Source of the DNA: a virus
Lineage: Duplodnaviria; Heunggongvirae; Uroviricota; Caudoviricetes
IMG/VR virus record: IMGVR_UViG_3300028992_000037
DNA: 5,858 nt
Reading direction: 5' to 3' (one strand)
In this document: positions 1 through 5,858 of the stretch, piece by piece
Position numbering within the stretch: position 1 is the stretch's first letter
How the letters are laid out: every line of letters starts with the position of its first letter
Program-made: the position numbers and the translations under genes
Notes under the pieces: generated by a model
The model's database searches: none
Told to the model about the DNA's origin: nothing
What the model saw: the letters and a program-made list of their open reading frames with translations, nothing else

Positions 1-27
1 ATGCCCCTTACTGCTGCCTTTACCCAT
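1..27 (-). CDS. J: 5' end of tail tip attachment / central tail fibre protein J (partial, continues beyond the window start)
   Basis: The minus strand from 27 down to 1 reads ATG GGT AAA GGC AGC AGT AAG GGG CAT, i.e. MGKGSSKGH, which matches the N-terminus of lambda gpJ as I recall it. A GGAG Shine-Dalgarno lies 8 nt upstream (36..39). The 60-nt gap after the I stop reproduces the lambda I-J spacing as I recall it. Only 9 codons are visible, so the call rests on sequence identity and synteny. Confidence 0.6.
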
Positions 28-41
28 TCGTCACGCTCCAT

Positions 42-69
42 AAACGACAAAACCGCCCGCAGGCGGTTT
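42..69 (-). terminator. GC-rich hairpin followed by a U-run in the I-J intergenic spacer; candidate intrinsic terminator or attenuator
   Basis: Seen directly: on the minus strand AAACCGCC (69..62), loop UGCG (61..58), GGCGGUUU (57..50), followed by UGUCGUUU. This is an 8-bp stem (5 G:C pairs) with a 4-nt loop and a T-rich tail, lying between the I stop (88..90) and the J ribosome-binding site. Confidence 0.35.
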
Positions 70-87
70 CACATAAAACATTTTTCA

Positions 88-729
88 TCAGCGACCAATC
101 ACCACAACCTGACCACCATCACCTTCATCTGCTGTGCTGATCTCCTGAGATACCACCCGCGACCCCACACGCATTTCACCGTACAGAACGGGCAGGACAT
201 TGCCCTGGGCAACCATATTATCCAGTGAAGAAAAATAGGTGTTCTGTTTGCCGTTATCCGTTGTCTGTGTGCGGGGGGTTTTGGGTTTAGGGGCCAGCAT
301 CTGTGCAACACCGCCAAGCGTCATACTGGCACCGAGAGAAAACAGCAGATTACTCGCCATAATTCCTACCCCCGGCATCCATATAGCAACCGCCATAACA
401 GCCGCCCCCAGCACAGCCTGAAACACACCGCCACTTTTGGCTCCCGCCAGACGCGGCACGATATGGATCACAGCACCATTTGCCAGCGGTTCATTAAGAC
501 GGGCTGATAATTCCGTTTCACCTGTATCACGCCCGGCAATGCGTACCTGATACCAGCCGTCGCTCAGCTTCTGACGAAACGCCGGGATCTGCATGGCCAG
601 CGCCCGGATGGCTTCGGCCCCCGTTTTCACACGCAGATCGATGCGGCGGCCAAATCGTTGTAAATCCCCGTAAAGGCAGATGCGCGCCATGCCCGGTGAC
701 GCCAGAGGGAGTGTGTGCGTCGCTGCCAT
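88..729 (-). CDS. I: Tail assembly protein I (lambda gpI-like)
   Basis: 213-aa ORF starting MAATHTLPLASPGMARICLYGDLQRFGRRIDLRVKTG, which matches the lambda gpI N-terminus as I recall it. It overlaps the 3' end of K by 103 nt in another frame, the same overlap I recall for lambda K/I. It sits between K and J, has high GC, and includes a hydrophobic glycine/alanine-rich central segment. Confidence 0.9.
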   Translation of the reverse strand: MAATHTLPLASPGMARICLYGDLQRFGRRIDLRVKTGAEAIRALAMQIPAFRQKLSDGWYQVRIAGRDTGETELSARLNEPLANGAVIHIVPRLAGAKSGGVFQAVLGAAVMAVAIWMPGVGIMASNLLFSLGASMTLGGVAQMLAPKPKTPRTQTTDNGKQNTYFSSLDNMVAQGNVLPVLYGEMRVGSRVVSQEISTADEGDGGQVVVIGR

Positions 730-1370
730 TTGTCGGTATACCTCTCTCGTTTGCTCAGTTGTTCAGGAATATGGTGCAGCAGCTCGCCGTCACCACAGTA
801 AATGGCGGCATGATTCGGCACCGATGAACCAAAGCAGCACAGCAGCACATCGCCCGGTTGTGCTGATGACAACGGCACCTGATACAGCCCTGTGGCCTCC
901 AGATTATCCAGATAGAGATTCTGACCGTGACGCCACCAGTCATCCCCGCGATGAAAATCCGGCATCTCAATTCCCGCCAGATGGTAAGCGTCCCGGAACA
1001 GCGTGTAACAGTCCGTCACCCCGTGCTCAAAGCGCCGCCCGGTGAGATGCGGCACACAGCGGAATTTATGAATCGCCCCCCGGCAGACCAGCCACCACGG
1101 CAAATCACTCTGCACCTGCAGCCGCCGGTCGGCCTCACTCAGCCAGGGCAGACCACCGGGGTGGCTGTGGACCAGCGCCACAATCTCTCCCTGCATTTCT
1201 GCACTCAGCCAGTCCTCCGGCGACATCCGGAAATACGCCTCCGGCTCACCGGAGATATTCACGCAGGGAAAATATCTTTCCTCCTCCGGCGTTCTCACCA
1301 CGAAGCCGCACGACTCCGCTGGCGCACATCGCCGGGCGTGCGCCAGAATCGCTGATTCTGTCTCTGTCAT
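627..1370 (-). CDS. K: Tail tip assembly protein K (lambda gpK-like; N-terminal MPN/JAMM-type domain plus C-terminal NlpC/P60-type domain)
   Basis: 247-aa ORF beginning 5 nt after the L stop. It contains an exact JAMM motif, HSHPGGLPWLSEAD (H-x-H-x7-S-x2-D, aa 68-81), with an upstream Glu at aa 19. The C-terminal half has a Cys/His arrangement typical of NlpC/P60 (DCYTLF ... NHAAIY ... LLHHI). An alternative internal start at Met49 (1224..1226) is preceded by GGAGG and would correspond to the classical 199-aa lambda K. Confidence 0.88.
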   Translation of the reverse strand: MTETESAILAHARRCAPAESCGFVVRTPEEERYFPCVNISGEPEAYFRMSPEDWLSAEMQGEIVALVHSHPGGLPWLSEADRRLQVQSDLPWWLVCRGAIHKFRCVPHLTGRRFEHGVTDCYTLFRDAYHLAGIEMPDFHRGDDWWRHGQNLYLDNLEATGLYQVPLSSAQPGDVLLCCFGSSVPNHAAIYCGDGELLHHIPEQLSKRERYTDKWQRRTHSLWRHRAWRASAFTGIYNDLAAASICV

Positions 1371-1375
1371 GGGAT

Positions 1376-2074
1376 TTACTGCGAAAGTTTGTTAATGGAA
1401 AGGAAGCTGCCAAAGTTGCCGACATTATTGCGAAACTTACAGCCACTCAGGCATTTGCTGCATTTATCCTTCGTGATATCGGACGTCGGCTGGTCATATT
1501 CATCCGCGACCGCCGGACCGCTATAACCGCACTCATCGCCGCGATAGGTCCAGGTGCAGGTGTTGGCCAGCATGATACGTCCCGGAAAAACAGCGCCATC
1601 CGTTTCCGTCGGCGTGGACAGTACAAAAGAGGCACTGACCGCGCTCAGTTCGCTGCACTGCTCGATGCGCCAGCGGCTGATCACCTCCTGCTCCGGATCG
1701 GCTTCGCTGTTTCCGTTGACGAAGTTCACCGCATCCAGAAAGCGGGCGTAAACCTTACGCCGGACCACCGTTCCGCCGACCAGACTCTGCAGATCTTCCG
1801 CCATCCCGGTGATCATGCCGTGCAGGTTAGAGACCGTCAGTGTCGGACGGGCAGCACTGCCCTTGCCGTTCATCTCAAATCCACTCCCCTGAATGGGATA
1901 GGCCTGATACTGCCGACTCTGCCAGGTGACAGACTCACCTTTTTCGTTCTGCTCATTACAGAAAAAGTAGCGATCCCCGCCTACCTCGGTCAGGTCGATT
2001 TCCCAGAGCACCACGCTGGCCGACTGCTCCGCACGAATGCATTCATTCAGCGTTTCCTGTTGTATGTCCTGCAT
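1376..2074 (-). CDS. L: Minor tail protein L (lambda gpL-like, tail tip complex; cysteine cluster consistent with an Fe-S site)
   Basis: 232-aa ORF starting [12 protein letters not shown]...SASVVLWEIDLTEVGG, closely matching lambda gpL as I recall it, and the same length as lambda L (699 nt). Its ATG overlaps the M stop as ATGA (2072..2076). There is a C-terminal cysteine cluster (C173, C182, C205, C208, C212). Confidence 0.92.
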   Translation of the reverse strand: MQDIQQETLNECIRAEQSASVVLWEIDLTEVGGDRYFFCNEQNEKGESVTWQSRQYQAYPIQGSGFEMNGKGSAARPTLTVSNLHGMITGMAEDLQSLVGGTVVRRKVYARFLDAVNFVNGNSEADPEQEVISRWRIEQCSELSAVSASFVLSTPTETDGAVFPGRIMLANTCTWTYRGDECGYSGPAVADEYDQPTSDITKDKCSKCLSGCKFRNNVGNFGSFLSINKLSQ

Positions 2075-2412
2075 CAGATCACCACTTCGTCAAACTGACA
2101 CGAAAAATCGGTATAGGTGATATGTTCTGTCGCTGACCACGTTCGACACACCACTCTGATTTTTCTGTTAATACCCGGCGGGCGCCAAAAAAAAGATTTA
2201 TAGCCTTCATGCCGGGCTAAAAATTTTTCAAATGAATCACGTTCATTCGCCTCAACTTTGAAATCACAGGTGAAAACGCGCAGAGAATGATTAAGTCCAT
2301 TTGGACTTCGTTGCTCATAACCATCGCCAAATCTTACAGTTTTTATCGATGGTTTATTTTCTGTTTTCATTCCATCCTCTGGTAACCAGTGAAATTCTTC
2401 CGTATTAGCCAC
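2074..2412 (-). CDS. M: Minor tail protein M (gpM family, divergent from lambda gpM)
   Basis: 112-aa ORF with a GTG start that overlaps the H stop by 8 nt. The N-terminus ([28 protein letters not shown]) aligns with the lambda gpM N-terminal region (F-R-W...GM...VRFGDGY) as I recall it, and the C-terminus ends ...FDEVVI versus lambda ...FEQVVN. An alternative ATG start at 2368..2370 is preceded by GAGGA. GC content is markedly lower than in L, K and I. Confidence 0.8.
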
Positions 2413-5400
2413 TTAACATTCCCCCATCACGTCGCATATTTAACAGATTGCCCTGCACCCGCTGATCAACCATCCCCATAAGTGCTTTTATTGCCTGAGG
2501 GCCAATCTCTCCATTCTGGCCGTCATTTTGAATAGTGATTTGGTATACAGGGGCATAGGTAATATCTCCGCCTCCATTACCACTTTTACTATTAATAGCT
2601 CTGACACCAAGAGAACCATCGGAAGTTCGTGTTAATGGCATAATGGCTTCCGGACCAGCTTCACCAAAAACACCAGCCCCTCTTGCAAAAGCAAAAAATT
2701 GCGGGGAATCATAAATACCGTTCGAATACGTGTTCAATGACGGAGACTCATAAACACCGCCCTTTGCATTCGGAATAAATTTACTAATAGCACTCCCGAT
2801 AGTTCCTAAAATCCCCCCAGAAGAACTGTTACTAATGCTGTCGAAAATCCCAGTAATTGAAGCCTTTAATGCTATTCGACTAAGATCCGAAATCACGGAA
2901 GTAGCGAAAGAACGAAAATTTGCCTTGCCTGTCGTGACAAAATCACCCAACGCATCGGTCATTCCATCAAACATCTGAGTCGTGGTTGATTTTATCTGCT
3001 CACTGATATCCTTAGTGTCATCCAGCCAGTTATTGAATCCCTGGGAGGCACCACTAACCCAGTCTCCTGCCTGAATATCGAGCTGCTCGTTTTTCTGTCT
3101 GACAATTTCTTTTTCTCGTTCCAGAGCATCATTCAGAGCCTGCATTTTCTCCTGAAAAACATGATTTGACATCCCACGGGATTTATCTGCATAGTCACGT
3201 TCAAGTTGCAGACGCTGATTGTTATATTCACGTTCAATCCGCAGTAATTCCTGCTGGCGTTGCTGATTTTTATCGCCAACCCCATAACCAGCAATCTGAA
3301 TATCATACCCCTGTTGACGATTATCAATCGAAGCCTGCAATGAATCACGCCATGCAGCTATTTCGGCGGATTCCTTGATTAGCCTGTTATTTTTTTCAAT
3401 CGCAACATTTTTCTCCATCAACGCGGTTATTTCTTCCCGGTGTAAGAGAAGCGATTTCTGATCCTGGGTTAATTTCGATGACGGTCGTGACTCCAGGTCG
3501 GCAATCTGCTGACGCCACTTAACCAGTTCCTGTTCAGAGGAACTTAATTTAACGGTTAATTCAGTTTGTGAACTTAGTAACGCATTCTGTTGATTCAGAT
3601 GATCAATCATTCGTTGGGCAGCATCATCCGAATAACCTTTCGCCTTTGGTTGCTTTGGATCTTTATAACGCTCATTTATTTGAGCGATAAAATTATTATA
3701 TTCTTCCTTTGAATACTGACTCTTTAGCTTTTCCAGTTTTGCAAGTTCACTAGCTCTCTGCTGCTCCCGGGTCTGATATTGTTTTGAAAAGGCATCTGCT
3801 CTCTGTCTGAGTTCAATTCCTTCCTGTTGTCGCTTGTTGTAATCGTTTATTGATGAATTTAGGACGTCCTGAGCAATTTTTTCTGCTTGAAGTACGCCCA
3901 ATTGCTGCTTTAATCGTGCCAGCCTTTTATTTTGAGCTCCGCCATCTCCAATGCCACCTAACCCGAAAACTCCGGGTCGGGTATTTTTTTCTATTTCATC
4001 AATTTGACGGAGAACATCTGAGATTTTTTGATCAAGGGAGGCCTCACGGCCAATATCCAGCATGGAATCCCATGCCCATTTTGCGGAGTCTGCGACAGCT
4101 TTCCATGCAGTCTCAAGATAACCAAGATTTTCTTTAATCTGGTTGGTGCGCTGGATCATTGAGGATGAGTATGCTTCTGTCGCAATGCGGGCGGCCTCCT
4201 GCTGGTTCCCTTCATCCTGTAGCGCCTTAATCTGGTTATAAGTCGCAATTGTCAGAAAATGGTACTGATCATTAAGTTTTGATATGGCACTGACAGGATC
4301 CTTTGCAATTTCATTGAAGTCATTAACCAGTTGTTCGGTTGATATTCCTGTTACTTCGCTCGTTTTTACTATCGCTGTCGTCACTTGCTCCAGCGAACTG
4401 CTCGCTACCTTTCCCGAACGCACAAGCTGGTTTAATACTGCCGCCGCAGCGCCAGTTGTCGAATCAGCCGCATTCCCGGCACGTTGAGCTATATCGGCCA
4501 ATTGCCCGCTGGTTGTCCCCAACTGATTTCCGGTAAGAATAAGAGATTTATTAAATTCGTCCTGCTCCTGAGAGCCTTTATAGTAAGCCAGCCCTAAGAC
4601 GCCAACGGCTGCTGCGGCCAGGGTAAAAGGATTAATTAATCCCAGCACATAAGAACCAACACCTTTGATCGCCGGGCCAATCCCACCGAACATATCTTTT
4701 AGCTGGCCGCCCTGCTGCATTAACACCATAAAAGGCGACTGACCAGTGGACAACCCAACAACAATATCCGTCATTTGTGCAGGCAACATGCGCATAGCAA
4801 AAGCCGTTTGTTTTGCCGACATTCCGGTTTTGCTTAATTGAGATTGAGTAACCTCAAGCTCACTCCGCATAGCACGAAGTTTTCCAGAAAGTTCCTCATA
4901 CATTTCAGGAGAGAGCATCCCCTTAGCTTTTGCTTCATTGAGCTGTTTCTGTTGTTCTACCAGACGATTAAAAGCAGTTCCGACAGGGTCAAGTTGAGCA
5001 ATCAGACGTTGCAAAGCAGCAACCTGTTCATCATGCGCTTTTGCTGCTTCTCGCTCTGCCTGAGCCTCTCCGGTAAGCTCTCGCCGTGTTTCCTGTATTT
5101 TTCGGCTATAATTCTCAAACTGAGAACCATTTATTTTCCCGGATGCAAACGCAGCATTAAGTTCATCCTGCTGTTGTTCAAGATTTCTTAGCGCCGCAAC
5201 CAGAGGGTCGATCTTGTCCAGCATTCTTTGAAAGGCCTGAGCCTGCGATTCCTGCTGGGCGGCAGCAAGTTTTCCGGCCTTCTCGGCTTCTCTCTGCGCT
5301 TGCGCAACCCCGCTCAATTCCTCTGTGGTTTCATTAAGTTTACGGACAAGAAATTCATATTCTTCTTTATCAATAAGTCCTTTATCGAAAAATTTCTTTA

Positions 5401-5638
5401 ATTCAGAATAGCGTCGACCGACAGTATCAATTGCGGCACCAACTGGATCAATAGCTGCTTTTAATTTTGCGAGCGCGTTCTTCTCATCTTCTGTTGCCTT
5501 AGTCACTTTCCCTGCGCTATTTGCAGCAGTTTCCCCGGCCTGCGTCATTTTGACTAATGAGGAGGTCAGATTGTCAGCATTATTTTTTGCTCCAGTGCTA
5601 TCAATAATTATTGCGAGACGCGAGGTTTGCTCTGCCAT
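2405..5638 (-). CDS. H: Tail tape measure protein (lambda gpH family, extended to 1077 aa)
   Basis: Single 3234-nt ORF with a GGAG Shine-Dalgarno at 5648..5651, 9 nt before the ATG. It has three N-terminal repeats of about 48 aa (aa 63-110, 143-190, 216-263). A conserved hydrophobic block ([38 protein letters not shown]...[15 protein letters not shown], aa ~283-354) matches the corresponding lambda gpH segment as I recall it. A long central region is Q/E/K/R-rich and coiled-coil-like. The C-terminus (...[16 protein letters not shown]...[10 protein letters not shown]) resembles the lambda gpH C-terminus as I recall it. It sits immediately upstream of M-L-K-I-J. Confidence 0.92.
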
Positions 5639-5798
5639 TTATTAAAACTCCAGACAACAAAAAGCCCACCGAAGTGGGTTTCAGGCGACATAATAGTAGA
5701 TATAGCGATTACGAGGCCACGCAATGCTTTTCTCCAGGAGCATCATCGATTTAATTAAAGACACCTGAAGTGGTTTACTGAATTTGGCCACCTGAACA

Positions 5799-5817
5799 GA
5801 GGTGATATGCTCACCTC
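5799..5817. promoter_or_regulatory. 7-bp perfect inverted repeat (GAGGTGA / TCACCTC) with a 5-nt spacer; candidate operator or protein-binding site upstream of a plus-strand gene start
   Basis: Seen directly: GAGGTGA at 5799..5805 and TCACCTC at 5811..5817 are reverse complements. Further CACCTG/CAGGTG copies lie nearby (5762..5767, 5789..5794, 5827..5832). The repeat is 20 nt upstream of the ATG at 5838. Confidence 0.3.
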
Positions 5818-5837
5818 AGAACAACACAGGTGCCATA

Positions 5838-5858
5838 ATGAAAAAAAGAAATTTCAGC
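5838..5858 (+). CDS. Possible 5' end of a plus-strand gene of unknown function (MKKRNFS..., continues beyond the window end), divergent from the tail operon
   Basis: ATG AAA AAA AGA AAT TTC AGC runs to the window end with no stop. An AGGTG Shine-Dalgarno-like motif lies 5 nt upstream (5828..5832). The Lys/Arg-rich N-terminus is typical of a signal peptide or membrane-protein start. Only 7 codons are visible, so this is tentative. Confidence 0.25.

What the first reader, a model, noticed from the sequence alone, without database searches (positions are those of the whole stretch)
5639..5858. No G/T tail-chaperone reading frame upstream of the tape measure gene; AT-rich spacer with a divergent gene start instead
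In lambda the G/GT chaperone gene ends in an overlap with the H start. Here all three minus-strand frames in the 220 bp upstream of the H ATG are interrupted by stops (for example TGA at 5681..5683 in the H frame), and no ORF terminates at or near the H start. The region is AT-rich and holds a 5-bp hairpin with a T-run (5665..5678), several CACCTG/CAGGTG repeats and an apparent plus-strand ATG at 5838. So either a moron or cargo gene has been inserted between the chaperone genes and H, or this is a module breakpoint or remnant in a defective prophage, or H has its own upstream regulatory region. Tape measure proteins normally need the G/GT chaperones, so their displacement would be notable.
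Basis: partly seen in the sequence, partly recalled or inferred. Interest (0 to 1): 0.55.

Follow-up and report, generated by a model that had tools for sequence, protein, structure and literature searches.

The report
Insertion sequence upstream of tape-measure gene
The apparently missing tail-chaperone genes are explained by a common jumping gene (ISEc52, an IS911 relative) that landed 127 bases upstream of the tape-measure gene of a Rac-type E. coli prophage, so the finding is ordinary.

Summary
Window 1-5765 is the tail module of a Rac-type lambdoid prophage on the minus strand (I, K, L, M, 1077-aa tape measure), colinear at 97-99% identity with many E. coli prophages. Homology stops exactly after 5765. 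Bases 5766-5858 are the first 93 bp of the IS3-family element ISEc52, 100% identical to a complete 1250-bp copy. The plus-strand ATG at 5838 starts its transposase orfA (MKKRNFS...).

In uninterrupted relatives the G/GT chaperone pair is present: YdaY (149 aa, PHROG 313), an in-frame A AAA AAG slippery site, and a 104-codon -1 extension. It ends 163-165 nt upstream of the tape-measure ATG, not overlapping it as in lambda. The IS sits 37 nt past that stop.

Across the family this interval varies from 39 to 2801 nt and carries cargo (Ail/Lom, Zn-ribbon membrane protein, KilA-N, YafO-like toxin, Arc plus antirepressor). This is the slot that holds the HK97 gene 15 moron.

The hairpin at 5665-5678 is a terminator-like element. 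It lies 19-28 nt before the tape-measure start in all 22 distinct relatives (stem disrupted in one) and shows compensatory stem changes.

What lies beyond the IS in this genome could not be seen.

The parts
2405..5638 (-). Tail tape-measure gene (1077 aa), the H equivalent of a Rac-type prophage (homologue of K-12 ynaA/tmpR)
   Evidence: ORF. Pfam hits: TMP_2 1e-81, TMP_4 3e-24, Tape_meas_lam_C 4e-26. K-12 Rac ynaA matches the 5' end.
5648..5651 (-). Shine-Dalgarno GGAG, 9 nt before the tape-measure ATG
   Evidence: Read from the sequence. A (C/T)GGAG motif 6-9 nt before the start is conserved in 21 of 22 distinct relatives (GGAA in L059).
5655..5678 (-). Intrinsic-terminator-like element: 5-bp stem CCCAC/GUGGG with a UUCG loop (5678..5665), then CUUUUUGUUG (5664..5655). 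It is native to the phage, not to the IS.
   Evidence: Terminator scan. The sequence is identical in the uninterrupted relatives aligned. A structural equivalent with different stem sequences lies 19-28 nt before the start in the distinct relatives.
5681..5746 (-). 21-codon ORF (MMLLEKSIAWPRNRYIYYYVA) ending 2 nt before the hairpin. It has no SD and there is no support for it as a gene.
   Evidence: Frame translation. The spacer has no similarity outside near-identical copies.
5639..5765 (-). Proximal 127 nt of the native 163-nt intergenic leader between the GT stop and the tape-measure start
   Evidence: 100% identical to E. coli 7/2 and phage vB_EcoS-683R6 up to 5765.
5763..5765 (.). ACC, the predicted 3-bp target-site duplication copy (inferred only, since the other copy would lie beyond the window)
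   Evidence: The ISEc52 copy in phage SEN22 is flanked by a 3-bp duplication, AAT.
5766..5858 (+). Left end of ISEc52 (IS3 family, IS911 relative). It contains the terminal inverted repeat starting TGAAGTGG, the leader, and the first 7 codons of orfA.
   Evidence: 100% identical over 93 bp to the 1250-bp copy in SEN22 and 92.5% to the annotated IS911 of Sf6. Three independent insertion contexts diverge exactly at TGAAGTGG. PGAP names identical copies 'IS3-like element ISEc52 family transposase'.
5838..5858 (+). Start of transposase orfA (MKKRNFS...)
   Evidence: It aligns with the start of Sf6 gene 56, 'putative IS911 transposase orfA' (L004 2073 corresponds to window 5838). The full OrfA of the identical copy hits HTH_Tnp_1, and OrfB hits rve.

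Best explanation
The 220-bp region is a composite of two things. Bases 5639-5765 are the native leader of the tape-measure gene of a Rac-type lambdoid prophage. Bases 5766-5858 are the left end of an ISEc52 insertion sequence (IS911-like, IS3 family), oriented opposite to the tail operon. It inserted into the intergenic gap between the tail-assembly-chaperone genes and the tape-measure gene.

In this phage family the chaperones are YdaY (the G equivalent) and a YdaY-plus-extension fusion (the GT equivalent), made by -1 slippage at A AAA AAG. Their shared reading frames end 163-165 nt upstream of the tape-measure ATG. The IS landed 37 nt after that stop and 127 nt before the ATG.

No chaperone frame is visible because the window ends inside the IS. 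The chaperone genes are most likely about 1.25 kb further on (inferred, not seen).

The hairpin plus U-run is a family-conserved, terminator-like element directly upstream of the tape-measure SD. It forms the downstream boundary of a variable cargo (moron) slot. Most likely it stops transcription coming from cargo promoters, and here from the IS region, from running into the distal tail genes in the lysogen. During lytic growth it would be read through by the antiterminated late transcript. This function is inferred by analogy with HK97 and lambdoid late operons.
For: IS breakpoint and identity:
- The window is colinear with 12 relatives only up to 5765.
- In the three-way alignment every column is identical up to 5765 and unrelated after it.
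- 5766-5858 is 100% identical to the SEN22 copy, a 1250-bp TG...CA element with a 3-bp duplication, and about 95% identical overall to Sf6 IS911.
- Copies of 99.9-100% identity (the listed top hits) are annotated ISEc52. 1800 of 5426 complete E. coli genomes hold a place covering at least 80% of the element, identity not restricted.
- OrfA and OrfB have HTH_Tnp_1 and rve domains.

Chaperones in relatives:
- The gene order is tail tube, YdaY, 66-aa ORF, tape measure in E. coli 7/2, in phage 683R6, and in 10 contigs that encode exactly this tape-measure protein.
- YdaY hits PHROG 313 'tail assembly chaperone' at 4e-46.
- An in-frame A AAA AAG gives a 104-codon -1 extension ending at a TAG 163 nt before the ATG.
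- An in-frame slippery heptamer with a 100-116-codon -1 extension is present in 79 of 82 loci; one further locus (L036) has the heptamer but only a 39-codon extension.

Cargo slot:
- The GT-to-H distance ranges from 39 to 2801 nt.
- Cargo is diverse.
- The HK97 gene 15 moron and its annotated terminator occupy the same position.

Terminator:
- Found by the scan.
- A hairpin plus U-run at a fixed distance from the start occurs in all 22 distinct upstream sequences, with at least 7 different stem sequences, including one locus with only a 39-nt spacer.
Against: The right end of the IS and whatever follows it are outside the window. The junction was not found in complete E. coli genomes, the species-representative genomes or the metagenome contigs. 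A simple insertion with intact chaperone genes beyond it is therefore inferred, not shown.

The window's hairpin is the weakest in the family (5 bp, -7.2 kcal/mol, against -12.3 in K-12 Rac). No termination activity has been measured. No sigma-70-like promoter was detected in the spacer or the IS end, so what the terminator would stop in the 'empty' E. coli version is unclear.
Confidence: 0.85

Rival explanations
1. The IS marks the edge of a deletion or rearrangement. The prophage would be truncated at this point and the chaperone, tail-tube and head genes would be gone or elsewhere, leaving a defective remnant whose tape-measure gene is orphaned.
For: Rac-type prophages are often decayed and riddled with IS elements. 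K-12 Rac has a truncated ydaY and tape measure and an IS5 in lomR. L006 has an IS directly upstream of ydaY. E. coli DLI.6n has an IS3-family transposase inside the same module. The sequence beyond 5858 is unknown and the junction was found in no collection.
Against: The insertion end is a clean IS terminus at an intergenic site. The 5.8 kb of tail genes in the window are all open and 97-99% identical to intact prophages. Simple insertion is the default outcome of IS3-family transposition (established knowledge). Functional phages such as Sf6 and SEN22 carry the same kind of IS.
Confidence: 0.2
2. This is the first reader's preferred reading: a moron or cargo gene with its own start at 5838 was inserted between the chaperones and H.
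For: This interval is a genuine cargo slot in the family and in HK97. The ATG at 5838 does start a gene.
Against: The gene is the orfA of a transposase. The inserted DNA begins with the IS3-family terminal repeat and is 100% identical to ISEc52 copies found in unrelated contexts. It is a self-mobilising element, not a promoter-gene-terminator cassette.
Confidence: 0.02
3. The chaperone frame is hidden by a sequencing or assembly artefact. Either an error masks a continuous T-like ORF, or a contig was mis-joined at a repeat.
For: The window ends 93 bp into a multi-copy repeat, as short-read contigs typically do (inference).
Against: Bases 5639-5765 are base-for-base identical to hundreds of uninterrupted E. 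coli genomes in which this stretch is also non-coding. In relatives the T-like frame ends 37 nt beyond the junction, so no error within the window could restore it.
Confidence: 0.03

Closest known systems
IS911 / ISEc52 (IS3 family, IS3 group)
   Same: It has the terminal TGAAGTGG... inverted repeat, a leader, and an orfA start MKKRNFS. It is 100% identical over 93 bp to a complete 1250-bp ISEc52 copy with OrfA (HTH_Tnp_1), an A AAA AAG frameshift region, OrfB (rve) and a 3-bp target duplication.
   Different: Only the first 93 bp are in the window. This particular insertion site was not found in any searched collection.
Lambda G/GT tail assembly chaperones with programmed -1 frameshift (the conserved frameshift described by Xu, Hendrix and Duda 2004; from my own knowledge)
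   Same: Relatives of this prophage have a 149-aa G-like protein between the tail-tube and tape-measure genes. It carries an in-frame X XXY YYZ heptamer just before its stop and a -1 extension of about 100-116 codons. One relative even uses lambda's G GGA AAG.
   Different: The pair belongs to a different sequence family (YdaY, PHROG 313; no Pfam match above the curated cut-off in this copy, only a weak sub-threshold Phage_TAC_18 hit on the extension). The heptamer is A AAA AAG. The GT stop does not overlap H as in lambda but is followed by a 39-2801 nt gap. None of it lies inside this window.
HK97 gene 15 moron slot (Juhala et al. 2000; Cumby et al. 2012, as summarised in PMC3594210)
   Same: [quoted passage not shown] A terminator lies immediately upstream of the tape-measure start: HK97's annotated terminator at 8398-8422 precedes the H start at 8435.
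   Different: In the window's E. coli lineage the slot is 'empty' (163 nt, no supported gene) but keeps the terminator. The inserted DNA here is an IS, not a moron.
Rac prophage of E. coli K-12 (ydaY - ynaA/tmpR)
   Same: It has the same ydaY-T frame-spacer-tape measure layout, 98.4% identity across the junction, and the same hairpin position.
   Different: K-12 Rac has a truncated ydaY and a truncated tape measure, a 165-nt spacer and a stronger hairpin. The window has a full-length tape measure and the IS.

Membership tests
IS3-family insertion sequence (ISEc52 / IS911 group) | Element terminus 5'-TG with an imperfect terminal inverted repeat, at the point where homology to the host locus breaks | tested here: met
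   TGAAGTGG starts at 5766, exactly where colinearity with 12 relatives ends. The same terminus appears in two other insertion contexts. The left and right ends of the full copy share TGAAGTGG...GGCCACC.
IS3-family insertion sequence (ISEc52 / IS911 group) | Near-identity to a named reference copy | tested here: met
   93 of 93 bp are identical to the 1250-bp copy in SEN22. Copies of 99.9-100% identity in E. coli are annotated ISEc52 family.
IS3-family insertion sequence (ISEc52 / IS911 group) | orfA (HTH) and orfB (DDE/rve) joined by a -1 frameshift | not testable with these tools
   Only 7 codons of orfA are in the window. The identical reference copy has HTH_Tnp_1 and rve ORFs.
IS3-family insertion sequence (ISEc52 / IS911 group) | 3-bp (occasionally 4-bp) direct target duplication flanking a complete element | not testable with these tools
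   The right end is beyond the window. The predicted right junction was absent from metagenome contigs. The reference copy has a 3-bp AAT duplication.
G/GT-type tail assembly chaperone pair | Two overlapping frames between the major tail gene and the tape-measure gene, present in the given 220 bp | tested here: not met
   All three minus-strand frames are closed. In relatives the pair ends 37 nt beyond the IS junction.
G/GT-type tail assembly chaperone pair | In the phage family: an in-frame slippery heptamer near the end of the upstream ORF, with a -1 frame extension | tested here: met
   A AAA AAG lies 6 nt before the YdaY stop and gives a 104-codon extension in L001. 79 of 82 loci have such a heptamer with a 100-116-codon extension; one more has the heptamer with a 39-codon extension.
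G/GT-type tail assembly chaperone pair | Sequence homology to known tail assembly chaperones | tested here: met
   YdaY hits PHROG 313 'Tail assembly chaperone' at 3.8e-46. The extension gives only weak hits: PHROG 313 C-terminal part at 0.009, PHROG 3817 at 0.01, and Pfam Phage_TAC_18 at 0.004, below its cut-off.
Moron (promoter-gene-terminator cassette) | The inserted DNA is an independent cargo gene with its own promoter and terminator, absent from related phages | tested here: not met
   The insert is a transposable element with terminal repeats and a transposase. No promoter-like site was found in 5400-5858.
Rho-independent terminator | G+C-rich stem-loop directly followed by a U-run on the transcribed strand | tested here: met
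   CCCAC-UUCG-GUGGG plus CUUUUUGUUG on the minus strand; hairpin dG is -7.2 kcal/mol.
Rho-independent terminator | Structure conserved through compensatory changes in relatives | tested here: met
   Stem variants include CCCAC/GTGGG, CCCGC/GCGGG, CTCGC/GCGAG, GCCGC/GCGGC, GGCCGCG/CGCGGC, GCCCGG/CCGGGT and GGCCCCGC/GCGGGGC, all followed by T4-8. One of the 22 is broken. My own script was used, not a phylogeny-aware test.
Rho-independent terminator | Causes transcript 3' ends in vivo or in vitro | not testable with these tools
   This needs Term-seq, Northern blot or a reporter assay.

The most novel reading that the evidence does not exclude
The hairpin plus U-run directly upstream of the tape-measure SD may not be merely the terminator of whichever cargo gene sits in the slot. 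It may be an integral, conserved part of this tail operon. It is kept with compensatory stem changes whether the slot is 39 nt, 163 nt or 2.8 kb. Under this reading it acts as an antitermination-overridable attenuator or insulator that separates the highly expressed tail-tube and chaperone genes from the tape-measure and tip genes. Together with the invariant UUUUUAUUGCCCGGAG motif, it would serve as the fixed downstream anchor for exchange of cargo cassettes.
Probability: 0.35. Interest if true: 0.3.

Novelty: already known. Interest (0 to 1): 0.1.

Why it matters
It matters little beyond annotation. It shows that the 'missing' chaperone genes are an effect of an IS insertion and of the window boundary, not a tape measure that works without chaperones.

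Three practical points follow:
- YdaY plus the unannotated -1 frame downstream of it is the G/GT pair of Rac-type prophages. It is routinely mis-annotated as 'protein YdaY' plus a 66-aa 'hypothetical protein'.
- The interval between GT and the tape measure in this family is a cargo hot spot. It holds Ail/Lom, toxin-like, antirepressor and membrane proteins and is bounded by a conserved terminator, as in HK97.
- An antisense 1.25-kb IS between the chaperone and tape-measure genes could be polar on the distal tail genes, which bears on whether this prophage can still make tails.

Tried and rejected
1. I tried to identify the source genome so as to see beyond the IS.
- A 41-nt left-junction pattern in genome contigs gave 0 hits.
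- A 28-nt left-junction pattern in metagenome contigs gave 0 hits.
- The predicted right junction, with a 0-8 nt gap to allow for the duplication, gave 0 hits in metagenome contigs.
- No complete E. coli genome spans the junction, and the best match to window 1-5765 is only 99.0%.
- The 10 best contigs encoding exactly this tape-measure protein are all uninterrupted.

2. I looked for a known RNA family in 5400-5858 using Rfam with permissive thresholds and found none.

3. I looked for a promoter in the spacer, in the IS end and in the full IS with the consensus scan and found none on the relevant strand.

4. I tested whether the 163-nt E. coli spacer is a remnant of cargo seen in relatives. 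Short-word blastn found similarity only to near-identical copies.

5. I folded the whole 181-nt leader. It is not unusually stable (z = -1.5), so only the local hairpin is notable.

6. A MAFFT alignment of the leaders did not align the stems by structure, so I tabulated stems with my own script instead.

7. A literature search found nothing describing YdaY as a chaperone.

Full report
WHAT IS IN THE WINDOW

The minus strand carries a lambda-like tail module (Pfam hits):
- a tail-tip assembly I-like gene at 88-729
- a K-like JAB/NlpC-P60 gene at 627-1370
- an L-like gene at 1376-2074
- an M-like gene at 2074-2412
- a 1077-aa tape-measure gene at 2405-5638 (TMP_2, TMP_4, Tape_meas_lam_C)

Window 1-5765 is colinear at 96.6-99.0% identity with prophages in many E. 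coli genomes and with several 'vB_EcoS' phage records. The junction region is 98.4% identical to the Rac prophage of E. coli K-12, where the tape-measure remnant is ynaA/tmpR and the upstream gene is ydaY.

CHECKING THE OBSERVATION

- All three minus-strand frames of 5639-5858 are closed, including the in-frame TGA at 5683..5681.
- The hairpin CCCAC-TTCG-GTGGG, followed by CTTTTTGTTG on the minus strand, lies at 5678..5665.
- CACCTG or its complement occurs at 5762, 5789 and 5827.
- There is an ATG at 5838.
- 'AT-rich' is weak: 41.4% GC against 45.0% in the adjacent tape-measure gene.
- The lambda comparison is correct, since T ends at 10549 and H starts at 10542.

WHAT THE RIGHT-HAND 93 BASES ARE

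In alignments with uninterrupted relatives, every column is identical up to 5765 and unrelated from 5766 on. From 5766 the window is 100% identical to a 1250-bp element in Salmonella phage SEN22 and 92.5% identical to the annotated IS911 of Shigella phage Sf6.

The window, SEN22 and Sf6 have unrelated left flanks and become alignable at exactly the same base, TGAAGTGG. The SEN22 copy runs TG...CA, has imperfect terminal repeats sharing TGAAGTGG...GGCCACC, and is flanked by a 3-bp duplication. It encodes an HTH_Tnp_1 OrfA and an rve OrfB.

Copies of 99.9-100% identity in E. coli genomes are annotated 'IS3-like element ISEc52 family transposase'. 1800 of 5426 complete genomes hold a place covering at least 80% of the element. 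Overall the element is about 95% identical to Sf6 IS911.

The ATG at 5838 corresponds to the start of Sf6 gene 56, IS911 orfA, and reads MKKRNFS. Two of the three CACCTG motifs are inside the IS end and the third spans the junction. They are therefore IS features, not phage features.

WHERE THE CHAPERONES ARE

The same gene order was found in E. coli 7/2 (L001), in phage 683R6 (L002) and in ten contigs that encode exactly this tape-measure protein. The order is tail tube (Phage_tube_2), YdaY (149 aa), a 66-aa 'hypothetical' ORF, then the tape measure.

YdaY matches PHROG 313 'tail assembly chaperone' at 3.8e-46. Six nucleotides before its stop lies A AAA AAG in the X XXY YYZ register. A -1 slip there opens a 104-codon frame, which contains the 66-aa ORF and ends at a TAG 163 nt upstream of the tape-measure ATG. 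The result is a 252-aa GT-like fusion.

Across 82 related loci, 79 have such an in-frame heptamer with a -1 extension of 100-116 codons. The heptamer is A AAA AAG in 78 of these and lambda's own G GGA AAG in one. One further locus (L036) has A AAA AAG but only a 39-codon extension. The family therefore has an orthodox G/GT pair. It lies upstream of the insertion point, which is 37 nt past the GT stop and 127 nt before the tape-measure ATG.

THE NATIVE GAP IS A CARGO SLOT

Unlike lambda, this family never overlaps GT with H. The GT-stop to H-start distance is:
- 163-165 nt in the E. coli, Shigella and E. ruysiae lineage
- 39 nt in one viral contig
- 518 to 2801 nt in others

The longer versions hold unrelated cargo:
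- an Ail/Lom outer-membrane protein
- a lipoprotein and a Zn-ribbon membrane protein
- a KilA-N protein
- a YafO-toxin-like protein
- an FtsK-gamma domain protein
- an Arc-like repressor with a P22-type antirepressor

[quoted passage not shown] The HK97 record annotates a terminator at 8398-8422, just before the tape-measure start at 8435.

THE HAIRPIN

I extracted the 70 nt upstream of the tape-measure start from all relatives and collapsed them to 22 distinct sequences. Every one has a G+C-rich stem-loop followed by a T-run, ending 19-28 nt before the start codon. This is followed by a (C/T)GGAG SD 6-9 nt before the start (GGAA in one, L059).

The stems differ in sequence but stay paired: CCCAC/GTGGG, CCCGC/GCGGG, CTCGC/GCGAG, GCCGC/GCGGC, GGCCGCG/CGCGGC, GCCCGG/CCGGGT and GGCCCCGC/GCGGGGC. 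Only one sequence (L069) has a disrupted stem. The element is present even where the whole spacer is 39 nt (L067).

This supports a conserved terminator-type structure. It is not a phylogeny-corrected covariation test, and activity is untested. The window's version is the weakest (5 bp, -7.2 kcal/mol, against -12.3 in K-12 Rac). No Rfam family matches, and the whole leader is not unusually structured.

HOW IT MOST LIKELY WORKS

Shown:
- An ISEc52 end abuts the native leader at 5765/5766.
- The IS is antisense to the tail operon.
- The leader keeps its SD and hairpin.
- The family has G/GT upstream of this point.

Inferred:
- The IS is complete, with an ACC duplication, and ydaY/GT follow it about 1.25 kb away. 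I put this at roughly 0.75 against 0.2 for an IS-associated truncation or rearrangement, because Rac-type prophages are frequently decayed.
- The hairpin terminates transcription arriving from cargo promoters in the lysogen and is read through by the antiterminated late transcript. This is by analogy with HK97 morons and lambdoid Q-dependent late operons; a Q-like gene is present in the relative L006.
- The IS may reduce expression of the tape-measure and distal tail genes. The consensus scan found two weak terminator-like sites on the IS antisense strand, no more than expected by chance.

COMPARISON WITH KNOWN SYSTEMS AND NOVELTY

All components are known kinds: ISEc52/IS911, the conserved G/GT frameshift, the HK97-type moron slot with its terminator, and the Rac prophage tail module. 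This exact insertion was not found in any collection searched, but it is an ordinary strain-level event.

The only mildly interesting by-product concerns the terminator-like hairpin. It is kept with compensatory changes regardless of slot content, so it may be an integral attenuator or insulator and recombination anchor rather than cargo baggage. That reading is untested and close to what is already described for HK97.

VERDICT

Interest is low.

Noticed in passing
window 2074-2412 versus 400-2000: There is a sharp G+C step at the M/L gene boundary. The tape-measure and M genes run at about 38-50% GC, while L, K and I run at 55-64%. This suggests a mosaic joint inside the tail module.
   Followed up: no
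window, whole: CACCTG/CAGGTG occurs 10 times against 2.4 expected, and 0 of 200 shuffles reach 10. Seven copies lie in the L/K/I/M coding region, including a tandem pair at 1551-1562. They are unrelated to the three copies in the finding region.
   Followed up: partly
window 5681-5746 (-): A 21-codon ORF (MMLLEKSIAWPRNRYIYYYVA) ends 2 nt before the terminator-like hairpin. It has no SD and no homologues outside near-identical copies. It could be a relic of lost cargo or chance.
   Followed up: partly
L001 6403-6723 (-); L016 2304-2618; all E. coli relatives: The -1 frame extension of YdaY is either not annotated or is annotated as a separate 66-aa 'hypothetical protein' starting at an internal GTG. 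In K-12 records nothing is annotated there. This is a systematic annotation gap for the GT-type fusion.
   Followed up: yes
L103 (IMGVR_UViG_2639762827_000001); L053, L057: One relative uses G GGA AAG, lambda's own slippery heptamer, instead of A AAA AAG. Two relatives showed no in-frame heptamer in the last 60 nt of the G-like gene.
   Followed up: no
L058-L061, about 2700-3500: Close E. coli relatives carry an Ail/Lom-family outer-membrane protein gene in the GT-H slot (Pfam Ail_Lom 2e-26). These relatives have a G-like protein 95-97% identical to the window family's. The slot ends with a different, stronger terminator, GGCCCCGCTT...AAGCGGGGC.
   Followed up: partly
L022 3789-6035 (Citrobacter sedlakii): The slot holds an FtsK-gamma-domain protein, an Arc-like repressor on the opposite strand and a P22-type antirepressor. 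This looks like an immI-like module sitting inside a tail operon.
   Followed up: no
H110, E. coli DLI.6n NZ_CP103974.1 2678152-2685252: Another genome has an IS3-family transposase inside the same tail module, splitting the tape-measure annotation. This is an independent IS hit in the same region.
   Followed up: no
L016 2700-2784 (K-12 Rac) versus window 5655-5685: The K-12 hairpin has 2 extra loop bases and a U instead of C at the stem base. It extends to about 10 pairs (-12.3 kcal/mol), against 5 pairs (-7.2) in the window's allele.
   Followed up: partly
window 5858 (right end): The window stops 93 bp into a multi-copy IS. This is what a short-read contig end looks like, so the source may be a draft assembly broken at this repeat (inference only).
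   Followed up: no
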